Source: Escherichia coli
Lineage (GTDB): Bacteria > Pseudomonadota > Gammaproteobacteria > Enterobacterales > Enterobacteriaceae
DNA length: 1,978 nt
Strand: one strand, 5' to 3'
Assembly (NCBI RefSeq): GCF_003334255.1
Contig: NZ_QOWU01000142.1
Position numbers and translations under genes: made by a program. Positions 1,319 to 1,384 of this stretch are shown piece after piece. Every line of letters begins with the position of its first letter. The first letter of the stretch is position 1. The notes beneath the pieces were generated by a model. That model had not been told where the DNA came from. It did not search any database and worked only from the letters and a program-made list of their open reading frames with translations.

Positions 1319-1384
1319 GAAATTGGCCTCAGATTAATGTTAAGCGTCCTGCAAGACGCATAATGTTAACTGGGGCTTTTCTCT
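1310..1384 (+). ncRNA. sok: Sok-like antisense RNA (type I antitoxin), boundaries approximate
   Basis: Plus-strand transcript would begin with a single-stranded tail (about 1310-1333) complementary to the mok SD and start codon, followed by a long imperfect stem-loop (1334-1348 / 1355-1369, loop CUGCAA) and a U-rich tail GGGGCUUUUCUCU (about 1371-1384). This mirrors the Sok architecture as I recall it. Ends are not experimentally defined. Confidence 0.45.

What the first reader, a model, noticed from the sequence alone, without database searches (positions are those of the whole stretch)
1334..1369. Strand-asymmetric hairpin: stable in Sok RNA, weakened in hok mRNA
At DNA level this looks like a 9-bp direct repeat TAATGTTAA (1335-1343 and 1361-1369) flanking a short GC inverted repeat. 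Read as plus-strand RNA, the arms 1334-1348 and 1355-1369 pair at 14 of 15 positions because two positions are G-U wobbles. On the minus strand (hok mRNA) those become C-A mismatches, leaving three mismatches. The locus thus seems to encode a stem that folds well only in the antitoxin RNA. Compared with the R1 sequence as I recall it, this region looks expanded by about 25 nt.
Basis: seen in the sequence. Interest (0 to 1): 0.4.

Follow-up and report, generated by a model that had tools for sequence, protein, structure and literature searches.

The report
Sok antitoxin stem-loop, prophage hokD locus
The flagged hairpin is the upper part of the single stem-loop of the Sok antitoxin RNA of a well-known prophage hok/sok toxin-antitoxin locus; its "stronger on one strand" property is real but is an ordinary, family-wide feature of these loci.

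Summary
TAATGTTAA occurs at 1335 and 1361. The arms pair 14/15 on the + strand (two G·U) and 12/15 on the - strand, with MFE -12.2 vs -8.9 kcal/mol.

The window is an E. coli lambdoid-prophage hokD/hokW-type type I toxin-antitoxin locus, with hok/mok on the - strand and Sok on the + strand. Positions 1334-1369 are the middle and top of the Sok stem-loop (1326-1376, then UUUUCUCU). On the other strand they are hairpin 2 of the hok mRNA leader, which sits on the mok-SD/anti-SD helix.

The asymmetry is not special to this locus. In 40 of 40 unique hok/sok hairpin types from one-genome-per-species data, the Sok strand folds better (mean -19.7 vs -10.7 kcal/mol; 116 vs 6 G·U pairs). Published R1 mutagenesis shows that closing one such C·A mismatch inactivates hok.

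The stem is weakened in hok mRNA but still predicted to form (pair probabilities 0.89-1.0), and it persists in both the closed and open conformers.

The clade-specific extension is a strand-symmetric GC mini-hairpin. It is 16 nt longer than the Rfam consensus and 12 nt longer than genuine R1, not about 25. The direct repeat is a by-product of wobble-tolerant, self-complementary arms.

Known system; low novelty.

The parts
1275..1280 (+). Predicted Sok promoter -35 (TTGCCT)
   Evidence: Read from the sequence, with a 17-nt spacer to the -10. Position is homologous to the sokC and sokW loci. Not flagged by the consensus promoter scan.
1298..1303 (+). Predicted Sok promoter -10 (TAACCT)
   Evidence: L036, which matches the sokW probe, carries the same TAACCT hexamer (hok-sense AGGTTA), and Takada's mutagenic primer YO-421 departs from the L036 sequence immediately 5' of GCCTCTTAC; that the 'promoter-less' construct alters this hexamer is my inference (PMC8621323).
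1310..1386 (+). Predicted Sok antitoxin RNA: 5' single-stranded tail, one stem-loop, U-rich tail. Both ends are approximate.
   Evidence: By alignment to the RefSeq-annotated sokC (59 nt) of K-12. Takada et al. give 71 nt of complementarity for sokW. Fold -30.2 kcal/mol, z = -5.2. The ends are not mapped for this allele.
1326..1376 (+). Complete Sok stem-loop: 7-bp base (1326-1332/1370-1376), bulged A1333, 9-bp middle helix, A1343·A1360 mismatch, 5-bp GC helix, loop 1349-1354
   Evidence: MFE -25.5 kcal/mol, 88% of the ensemble, z = -6.6. 94.4% of cells paired across 22 unique variants.
1334..1369 (.). The flagged element: middle plus apical helices of the Sok stem (+), which is hairpin 2 of the hok mRNA leader (-)
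1338..1339 (.). 5' half of the tandem wobble: U1338·G1365 and G1339·U1364 in Sok, a C·A/A·C 2x2 internal loop in hok mRNA
   Evidence: U·G and G·U are kept in 21 of 22 unique extended-type variants; the two exceptions become U-A and G-C.
1364..1365 (.). 3' half of the tandem wobble
1344..1359 (.). Clade-specific apical GC mini-hairpin: a 16-nt insertion relative to the Rfam consensus, strand-symmetric, with a loop that occurs in two mutually reverse-complementary alleles
   Evidence: The Rfam alignment shows a 16-nt insert in the loop of model hairpin 2. Absent from hokB, hokC, hokE, R1-type and L032. GC->AU compensatory change in L129 and L154. Alleles listed.
1329..1329 (.). U1329 of Sok (wobble with G1373), which is the A of the mok SD GAGG on the - strand (mismatch with C1373). 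Equivalent to R1 A106.
   Evidence: Sequence plus R1 numbering checked on L115. R1 A106G and C74T are loss-of-function (PMC9841398).
1373..1373 (.). G1373 of Sok, which is the C of the anti-SD/ucb GCCCC on the - strand. Equivalent to R1 C74.
1377..1384 (+). U-rich tract (UUUUCUCU) following the Sok stem: the terminator tail
   Evidence: Sequence. The same GGGGCUUUUCUCU ends the annotated sokC.
1016..1430 (-). hok mRNA. The 5' end is taken from the Rfam model start and a TAGAAT -10 at 1442-1437; the 3' end from the terminator.
   Evidence: RF01794 hit 1430->1256, 117.6 bits (gathering threshold 59). Terminator 1037-1020. Fold.
1419..1430 (-). tac element (GGGUGCUUGAGG)
   Evidence: Pairs with 1044-1056 in the full-length fold and with 1372-1378 in the truncated fold.
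1044..1056 (-). fbi element (CCUCAACGCACCC)
1372..1378 (-). ucb / anti-SD (AAGCCCC): pairs with the mok SD in the closed form and with tac in the open form
   Evidence: Element names follow PMC9841398.
1327..1330 (-). mok Shine-Dalgarno GAGG
   Evidence: 8 nt upstream of the mok AUG at 1318. Homologous to R1 G105-G108.
1293..1297 (-). dcb (GCCUC): pairs with the mok SD region in the open form
1106..1318 (-). mok-like ORF (70 aa) overlapping hok
   Evidence: Identical 70-aa proteins carry PF01848.
1106..1261 (-). hokD toxin CDS (51 aa)
   Evidence: RefSeq annotation of the 100% identical locus. ORF.
1020..1037 (-). hok mRNA intrinsic terminator

Best explanation
The element is the middle and apical part of the single stem-loop of a Sok-type antisense antitoxin RNA (+ strand, about 1310-1386; stem 1326-1376 followed by UUUUCUCU). 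The RNA belongs to a hokD/hokW-type type I toxin-antitoxin locus in an E. coli lambdoid prophage.

The same DNA, read on the - strand, is hairpin 2 of the hok mRNA leader. It is stacked on the helix in which the mok Shine-Dalgarno (GAGG, 1330-1327) is held by the anti-SD/ucb box (GCCCC, 1376-1372). Because G·U pairs in one strand are C·A mismatches in the other, one DNA segment encodes two different things. In Sok it gives an almost uninterrupted 21-bp hairpin, which I take to act as terminator and stabiliser. In hok mRNA it gives an interrupted, weaker hairpin.

Only the 7-bp base of the hok hairpin has to melt when 3' processing switches the mRNA from the closed form (tac-fbi, SD-ucb) to the open form (tac-ucb, SD-dcb). 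The flagged upper part is common to both forms.

Shown here: the pairing arithmetic, the predicted energies, the homology, the family-wide asymmetry, and the predicted closed/open switch.
Shown by others for R1: closing the C·A mismatch at the base (C74T or A106G) abolishes Hok toxicity, and for A106G strongly reduces Hok translation; the authors hypothesise that it locks hok mRNA in the closed form.
Inferred: that Sok of this allele really starts and ends where its homologues do; that the two wobbles at 1338/1339 are kept because a mismatch is wanted on the hok side (for example for easier strand invasion by Sok, or to avoid a long perfect helix that RNase III could cut) rather than merely tolerated; and that the 16-nt GC mini-hairpin is a clade-specific extension neutral to the hok switch.
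For: Identity of the locus: the window is 100% identical to E. coli chromosomal prophage DNA annotated hokD, between DUF968/ydfU and DUF551 genes. Rfam RF01794 scores 117.6 bits on the - strand and ends at the hok AUG. The Hok/Mok ORFs are present and carry PF01848.

Sok architecture: the annotated sokC, sokB and sokE of K-12 each consist of a tail, one hairpin and a U-rich tail, and they align with 1310-1386. sokW is described as 71 nt complementary to the hokW 5'-UTR, and its probe matches a locus with the same extended hairpin.

Asymmetry in this window.

Asymmetry in the clade: 94.4% of cells paired in Sok sense versus 78.1% in hok sense. The difference lies at window pairs 1329·1373, 1338·1365 and 1339·1364 and at the loop-closing pair.

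Asymmetry in the family: loci were collected with a motif that lies outside the hairpin. The Sok strand is more stable in 40 of 40 unique types, with 116 vs 6 G·U pairs. With the fixed anchors removed it is 36 of 39, 72 vs 15 G·U pairs, and 8 of 9 sequence clusters; the mean difference is -3.7 kcal/mol against -1.0 +/- 1.7 for composition-matched shuffles.

The switch: the full-length and truncated folds reproduce tac-fbi/SD-ucb and tac-ucb/SD-dcb, with 1334-1369 paired in both.

Functional relevance of the mismatch: R1 C74T and A106G are loss-of-function substitutions on opposite sides of the C·A mismatch (PMC9841398). I verified the numbering on an R1-type sequence.
Against: There is no transcript mapping for this allele; the Sok 5' and 3' ends are inferred by homology. 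The consensus scans flag neither the Sok promoter nor its terminator. All structures are thermodynamic predictions. The extended clade is shallow (92% mean column identity), so conservation of the two wobbles may be inheritance rather than selection. The cluster-level sign test is weak (p = 0.039, 9 clusters), and about 1 kcal/mol of the asymmetry is explained by base composition alone. The published mutational evidence concerns the base-of-stem mismatch in R1, not the two wobble positions in the flagged element. In this particular allele the loop-closing pair favours the hok strand, which makes the window one of the less asymmetric members of the extended clade (the Pseudocitrobacter-type alleles L123 and L134 are less asymmetric still).
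Confidence: 0.8

Rival explanations
1. Neutral by-product. Only the Sok stem is under selection for pairing. G·U pairs accumulate in it by drift because they are nearly neutral there, and the resulting C·A mismatches in the upper part of the hok hairpin have no function of their own.
For: The flagged upper hairpin is predicted to persist in both hok conformers, so its strength need not affect the switch. One natural variant (L066) closes one mismatch with a G-C pair. Part of the asymmetry follows from G+U richness of the Sok strand.
Against: At the base of the same stem, closing the mismatch is deleterious in R1. G·U pairs are about 19% of Sok pairs against about 5% of hok-strand pairs. The wobbles are kept as wobbles in 21 of 22 unique variants rather than drifting to Watson-Crick pairs.
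Confidence: 0.3
2. One reading: the stem is a Sok-only structure, and the complementary region of hok mRNA is effectively unstructured.
For: The hok strand has three mismatches in 15 positions, a lower MFE and a lower z-score.
Against: In the full-length hok mRNA fold all 12 canonical pairs have probability 0.89-1.0, and the GC mini-helix gains a sixth (U·G) pair. The hairpin is part of the Rfam covariance model of the hok leader. It also forms in the truncated mRNA. The extended hok-strand hairpin (-16 to -18 kcal/mol) is more stable than the short-type ones (-5 to -10).
Confidence: 0.08
3. Insertion footprint. The 9-bp direct repeat is a target-site or slippage duplication left when a small GC palindrome was inserted into the loop of an ancestral short Sok hairpin. 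The repeat is a historical scar, not an RNA feature.
For: Short-type loci lack the 16-21 nt. Duplications do occur at this spot: L130 has a 16-nt tandem duplication.
Against: The arm UUAAUGUUAA is self-complementary once G·U is allowed, so its pairing partner must read the same; that alone produces a 'direct repeat'. In relatives the repeat decays to 4 nt while 20-22 Sok base pairs are kept. The scan with the 23-nt window sequence spanning the core returned 22 stretches; those sharing a contig with the loci are hok loci, and I did not inspect the remainder.
Confidence: 0.1
4. DNA-level element: the direct repeats, or the palindrome, are a binding site for a phage or host regulator.
For: None beyond the repeat itself.
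Against: Variation follows RNA pairing rules (compensatory GC->AU, wobble-preserving changes), not conservation of the repeat sequence. The element lies inside two overlapping transcripts of a well-understood RNA-regulated system.
Confidence: 0.02

Closest known systems
hokW-sokW of Sakai prophage 5 (E. coli O157:H7), a hokD-type prophage locus (Takada et al. 2021, PMC8621323)
   Same: Same clade. It is a lambdoid-prophage location with a 51-aa Hok that starts MKQQKAM. The Sok -10 is the same TAACCT. The sokW probe contains CATTAATCTGAGGC and matches a locus (L036) with the same 51-nt extended hairpin. Sok is described as 71 nt complementary.
   Different: The window carries the other allele of the apical loop (CUGCAA in Sok sense instead of UUGCAG) and A instead of G at 1360. 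Its 5' leader hairpin also differs slightly. Nothing has been measured for this allele.
hok/sok (parB) of plasmid R1
   Same: Same architecture: tac, fbi, ucb, dcb, mok, and Sok with a 5' tail plus one stem-loop. It has the same U·G wobble / C·A mismatch at the SD/anti-SD base, and a tandem wobble / 2x2 internal loop in the middle of the stem.
   Different: The R1 stem segment is 39 nt and lacks the GC mini-hairpin, against 51 nt here. The Hok proteins are about 35% identical (44% per Takada for HokW). R1 is a plasmid maintenance locus, not a prophage gene.
Chromosomal sokC/hokC, sokB/hokB and sokE/hokE of E. coli K-12
   Same: The Sok RNAs annotated in RefSeq have the same tail, hairpin and U-tail plan and the same GGGGCUUUUCUCU ending (sokC). 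The asymmetry runs in the same direction.
   Different: Their hairpins are short (30-33 nt between the anchors) and their Sok RNAs are 57-60 nt.
Rfam RF01794 ('sok antitoxin, CssrC')
   Same: The window scores 117.6 bits over the full model. The flagged element is model hairpin 2.
   Different: The model matches the hok-sense strand and ends with the hok AUG, so it describes the hok leader in its open conformation rather than the Sok RNA. The window has a 16-nt insertion in the loop of hairpin 2.

Membership tests
[quoted passage not shown] | Small hydrophobic Hok/Gef toxin (about 50 aa, Pfam PF01848) | tested here: met
   51-aa ORF at 1261-1106. Identical proteins carry PF01848. RefSeq names the identical locus hokD.
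[quoted passage not shown] | Overlapping upstream mok reading frame with its own SD, to which hok translation is coupled | tested here: met
   70-aa ORF 1318-1106 in the hok frame, with GAGG 8 nt upstream. The translational coupling itself was not tested.
[quoted passage not shown] | Structured hok mRNA leader and 3' end with tac/fbi/ucb/dcb elements giving closed and open conformers | tested here: met
   RF01794 at 117.6 bits against a threshold of 59. Predicted full-length and truncated folds switch partners as in R1. This is prediction only.
[quoted passage not shown] | Cis-encoded antisense Sok RNA gene with its own promoter, covering the mok translation initiation region | tested here: inconclusive
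   TTGCCT, 17 nt, TAACCT at 1275-1303, homologous to the sokW promoter whose mutation abolishes antitoxin activity. The hexamers fall below the consensus-scan threshold, and no expression data exist for this allele.
[quoted passage not shown] | Sok fold: single-stranded 5' tail, one stem-loop, U-rich 3' tail | tested here: met
   Predicted fold of 1310-1386. Same plan as the annotated sokC, sokB and sokE.
[quoted passage not shown] | Sok 3' end lies downstream of the stem-loop, so the element is inside Sok | not testable with these tools
   Supported indirectly by the 71-nt figure for sokW and by the RefSeq sok coordinates in K-12.
[quoted passage not shown] | Toxicity of Hok and neutralisation by Sok | not testable with these tools
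   Shown for the close relative hokW-sokW.

The most novel reading that the evidence does not exclude
The clade-specific GC mini-hairpin on top of the Sok stem (1344-1359) might not be a neutral extension but a functional module of prophage Sok RNAs. It could be a recognition site for a host or phage factor (an RNA chaperone or a nuclease) that couples Sok decay to prophage induction; sokW RNA disappears after mitomycin C in a RecA-dependent way. Its two mutually reverse-complementary loop alleles, apparently produced by hairpin-loop inversion, would then tune which strand gains the extra closing pair.
Probability: 0.08. Interest if true: 0.5.

Novelty: already known. Interest (0 to 1): 0.22.

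Why it matters
It matters little as a discovery. The locus is an annotated hokD-type toxin-antitoxin gene, and its close relative hokW-sokW has been characterised.

The useful outcome is a clarification: one DNA segment encodes a strong hairpin for the antitoxin RNA and a deliberately imperfect one for the toxin mRNA. This G·U/C·A trick is a general design feature of hok/sok loci (40 of 40 hairpin types), and it fits published R1 mutants in which closing a mismatch silences the toxin. I found no open-access paper that states this generalisation explicitly, so it could serve as a simple strand-assignment and quality criterion when annotating Sok genes. PGAP left Sok unannotated in this locus, and the Rfam model reports it on the opposite strand.

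Tried and rejected
(1) A protein homology search with Hok returned only near-identical HokD-type proteins and added no diversity.

I replaced it with a DNA motif scan of the conserved leader segment GCCTCTTAC-N11-12-CAAGGAGAA. That scan also returned about 10 chance or contaminant hits, which I filtered out by requiring a Hok-like ORF.

(3) The 'mirror-of-Sok' energy evaluation is unreliable because ViennaRNA's eval does not handle non-canonical pairs. I ignored it and used independent MFEs and pair counts instead.

(4) MAFFT misaligned the two 49-nt Pseudocitrobacter sequences in A2 and A3, so some 'both sides changed' counts in the outer stem (columns 6-46 and 10-43) are alignment artefacts. 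I rely on the G·U columns and on per-sequence folds.

(5) No supplementary tables of PMC9841398 are held, so I could not check whether the 'five additional substitutions' are the other mismatch-closing transitions (A78G, C102T, A81G, C99T, A82G, C98T).

(6) Literature searches for an explicit statement of Sok/hok wobble asymmetry found none.

(7) The simple promoter and terminator scans found nothing for Sok. The Sok stem fails the scan's rules because of its bulge and mismatch and its long 'loop'.

(8) I considered and rejected the idea that the direct repeat is a target-site duplication or a protein-binding site (see the rival explanations).

Full report
OBSERVATION. TAATGTTAA occurs only at 1335-1343 and 1361-1369, both on the + strand. 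These copies flank GCGTC/GACGC (1344-1348 / 1355-1359) around a 6-nt loop. Read as + strand RNA, arms 1334-1348 and 1355-1369 pair at 14 of 15 positions, with two wobbles (U1338·G1365, G1339·U1364) and one A·A mismatch (1343/1360). On the - strand the wobbles become C·A and A·C, and 12 of 15 positions pair. RNAfold gives -12.2 vs -8.9 kcal/mol for 1334-1369 and -25.5 vs -18.3 for the complete stem 1326-1376. The z-scores against dinucleotide shuffles are -6.6 (+) and -3.9 (-) for the 51-mer. The hairpin is therefore real and non-random on both strands, and stronger on the + strand.

WHAT THE LOCUS IS. The window is 100% identical to chromosomal prophage DNA of several E. coli strains, and similar DNA is found in 4999 of 5426 complete E. 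coli genomes. RefSeq annotates hokD at 1106-1261 (-), between a DUF968/ydfU gene and DUF551 fragments in the Q/RusA/nin-like region of a lambdoid prophage. Related phage records call the gene 'host killer', gef or mokW. Rfam RF01794 hits the - strand 1430->1256 at 117.6 bits against a gathering score of 59. The model ends at the hok AUG, so it describes the hok leader, not Sok itself. A 70-aa mok-like frame (1318-1106) overlaps hok, and identical proteins carry PF01848.

Sok is on the + strand. The RefSeq-annotated sokC, sokB and sokE of K-12 (57-60 nt) each consist of a 12-16-nt tail, one hairpin and a U-rich tail. sokC aligns with window 1310-1386 and shares its ending GGGGCUUUUCUCU. Upstream lie TTGCCT (1275-1280) and, 17 nt later, TAACCT (1298-1303). 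L036, which matches the sokW probe, carries the same TAACCT hexamer, and the published mutagenic primer YO-421 departs from that sequence just 5' of GCCTCTTAC; that the 'promoter-less' sokW construct alters this hexamer is my inference. That paper gives sokW 71 nt of complementarity to the hokW 5'-UTR. Its sokW probe matches a locus (L036) that carries the same 51-nt extended hairpin. The flagged element therefore lies inside the predicted Sok RNA, as the middle and top of its only stem-loop.

WHAT IT IS ON THE OTHER STRAND. The 3' anchor of the stem on the hok strand, GAGG (1330-1327), is the mok Shine-Dalgarno. The 5' anchor, GCCCC (1376-1372), is the anti-SD/ucb box. Element names follow Le Rhun et al., PMC9841398. 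I checked their R1 numbering on an R1-type sequence: C74 and A106 face each other as the C·A mismatch in the 71-109 hairpin.

Folding the window's full-length hok mRNA (1430->1016) gives tac (1430-1419) paired with fbi (1056-1044), and a closed hairpin 1376-1326 that sequesters the mok SD. Within it every canonical pair of 1334-1369 has probability 0.89-1.0. Removing about 40 nt or more from the 3' end switches the prediction. Tac now pairs with ucb (1430-1423 / 1372-1378) and the SD pairs with dcb (1330-1326 / 1293-1297). The hairpin 1370-1333 remains. The flagged element is thus common to the closed and open conformers, and only the 7-bp base below it changes partners. This contradicts the strong reading that the stem folds well only in the antitoxin.

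IS THE ASYMMETRY SPECIAL? It is not. I collected hok loci from one genome per species with a leader motif that lies outside the hairpin (GCCTCTTAC-N11-12-CAAGGAGAA) and kept those followed by a Hok-like ORF. This gave 40 unique GCCCC...GAGGC segments from Escherichia, Citrobacter, Kluyvera, Pseudocitrobacter, Atlantibacter, Franconibacter, Serratia, Pantoea and others, together with K-12 and plasmid loci.

- The Sok strand is more stable in 40 of 40 (mean -19.7 vs -10.7 kcal/mol), and the MFE helices contain 116 G·U pairs on the Sok strand against 6 on the hok strand.
- With the invariant anchors removed, the Sok strand is more stable in 36 of 39, with 72 vs 15 G·U pairs.
- At the level of sequence clusters it is 8 of 9, and the one exception is a deletion derivative. 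The sign test gives p = 0.039.
- The mean difference is -3.7 kcal/mol, against -1.0 +/- 1.7 for composition-matched shuffles.

Within the extended clade (22 unique variants), 94.4% of cells are standard pairs in Sok sense against 78.1% in hok sense. The deficit sits exactly at window pairs 1329·1373, 1338·1365 and 1339·1364 and at the loop-closing pair. The two wobbles of the finding are kept in 21 of 22 variants. R1 itself has a tandem wobble in Sok, and so a 2x2 internal loop in hok, at a comparable height in the stem.

FUNCTIONAL MEANING. For the mismatch at the base of the stem there is published evidence. In R1, A106G and the opposite C74T each abolish Hok toxicity, and Hok translation is strongly reduced in the A106G mutant; each would close the C·A mismatch. 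The authors interpret this as locking the mRNA in the closed form, and they report five further substitutions with the same presumed mechanism. The equivalent positions here are A1329 and C1373 on the - strand, which form the U1329·G1373 wobble of Sok. So at least one wobble/mismatch position is demonstrably needed as a mismatch on the hok side.

For the two wobbles inside 1334-1369 no such data exist. The upper hairpin is predicted to persist in both conformers, so the mismatches there cannot be explained by the switch. Plausible roles are easier strand invasion during Sok-hok duplex completion, or avoidance of a long perfect helix in the long-lived hok mRNA that RNase III could cut. These are my inferences. 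The alternative is that they are simply tolerated (rival 1).

THE EXTENSION AND THE DIRECT REPEAT. The 51-nt stem segment compares with 39 nt in a genuine R1-type sequence, 33-34 nt in F-like plasmids, 33 nt in hokC, 30 nt in hokB, and 30 nt in a hokD-type allele without the extension (L032). The Rfam alignment places a 16-nt insertion (1344-1359) in the loop of model hairpin 2. 'About 25 nt versus R1' is therefore an overestimate; the figure is 12 nt.

The extension is the norm in hokD/hokW-type loci. It is present in nearly all of about 100 IMG/VR loci, and it also occurs in Kluyvera, Pseudocitrobacter and a Pantoea MAG, with a compensatory GC->AU change at its base in L129 and L154. It is strand-symmetric, and it makes the hok-strand hairpin more stable (-16 to -18 kcal/mol) than in short-type loci (-5 to -10).

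The 9-bp direct repeat follows from the arm UUAAUGUUAA being self-complementary once G·U is allowed, so that its pairing partner reads the same. In relatives the repeat shrinks to 7, 5 or 4 nt while Sok keeps 20-22 base pairs. What is conserved is the RNA pairing, not the repeat.

COMPARISON AND NOVELTY. [quoted passage not shown] The toxin, mok, the leader elements and the Sok fold meet the family definition. The Sok promoter and transcript ends rest on homology only. Nothing here lies outside the known system. In the searchable literature I found no explicit statement of the family-wide wobble asymmetry. It is, however, implicit in published R1 structures, it agrees with the R1 suppressor mutations, and the general principle that G·U pairs make RNA structure strand-specific is textbook knowledge.

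VERDICT. The feature is an ordinary, already known component of a known toxin-antitoxin system, with a clade-specific apical extension. Interest is low (0.22).

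Noticed in passing
window 1349-1354 (core 1344-1359); L005, L002, L073, L024, L123, L134: The apical loop exists in alleles that are exact reverse complements of each other: hok-sense CCTGCAAG vs CTTGCAGG, and likewise CGGCAA (E. coli, Kluyvera) vs TTGCCG (Pseudocitrobacter L134). No single-step intermediates appear among about 100 loci, and both orientations combine with either flanking base. This looks like recurrent hairpin-loop inversion (template switching at a quasi-palindrome). It moves the extra U·G closing pair from one strand to the other.
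   Followed up: partly
window 1256-1430 (-): The Rfam family RF01794, named 'sok antitoxin', matches the hok-sense strand and ends at the hok AUG. It models the hok mRNA leader in its open conformation, not the Sok RNA. Taking the strand of the Rfam hit as the Sok strand would be wrong. PGAP annotates no sok gene in the identical RefSeq locus.
   Followed up: yes
window 1477-1498: A perfect 22-bp palindrome, CGATATGGGAATTCCCATATCG (EcoRI site at the centre), lies between the upstream small ORF (1507-1611, -) and the hok promoter. Its function is unknown; it could be a terminator or insulator for upstream transcription, or an operator.
   Followed up: no
L130 (uncultured Enterobacteriaceae MAG), about 10733: A 16-nt tandem duplication (TTAACATCAACCTGAG x2) sits inside the Sok-stem/mok-SD region. 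It duplicates most of the SD-proximal arm (CCTGAG; the full GAGG is present only in the second copy), which shows that this spot tolerates length changes.
   Followed up: no
L123, L134, L140, L142, L150, L162: Tandemly duplicated hok/sok loci about 490-770 bp apart occur in Pseudocitrobacter, an Enterobacteriaceae MAG, Escherichia whittamii, Atlantibacter and Franconibacter. One copy in L123 has a deletion that removes half of the extended hairpin (GCCCCGGAAACATTGAGCGTCTTGCAGGAGGC); it is the only type with no Sok-over-hok stability advantage once the anchors are removed.
   Followed up: partly
L115 (Streptomyces morookaense contig164), L126 (Oscillibacter MAG); also L113, L117 and others: hok/sok loci whose Hok protein and Sok-stem segment are identical to R1-type appear in assemblies of a Streptomyces and of a Firmicutes MAG. 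These are probably plasmid, vector or E. coli contamination of those assemblies. Several other motif hits in unrelated taxa had no Hok ORF and are chance matches.
   Followed up: no
window 1016-1097 (-): There is a weak sub-threshold Rfam match to isrK (27 bits, threshold 50) over the hok 3' UTR stem-loops and terminator. It is probably generic terminator similarity.
   Followed up: no
window 1372-1503 (+) and 1372-1392 / 1409-1429: A second, weak 'sok' Rfam hit on the + strand (18 bits) arises because leader hairpin 1 (the tac hairpin) is a near-palindrome at the DNA level (21-nt arms, 76% complementary). It is not a second locus.
   Followed up: yes
L001 7727-8635 and neighbours (window 1727-1960): The genes upstream of hok in this prophage (DUF551, Ea22-like, DUF4752) are fragmented or frameshifted pseudogenes. 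This suggests a decaying prophage in which the hok/sok module is still intact.
   Followed up: no
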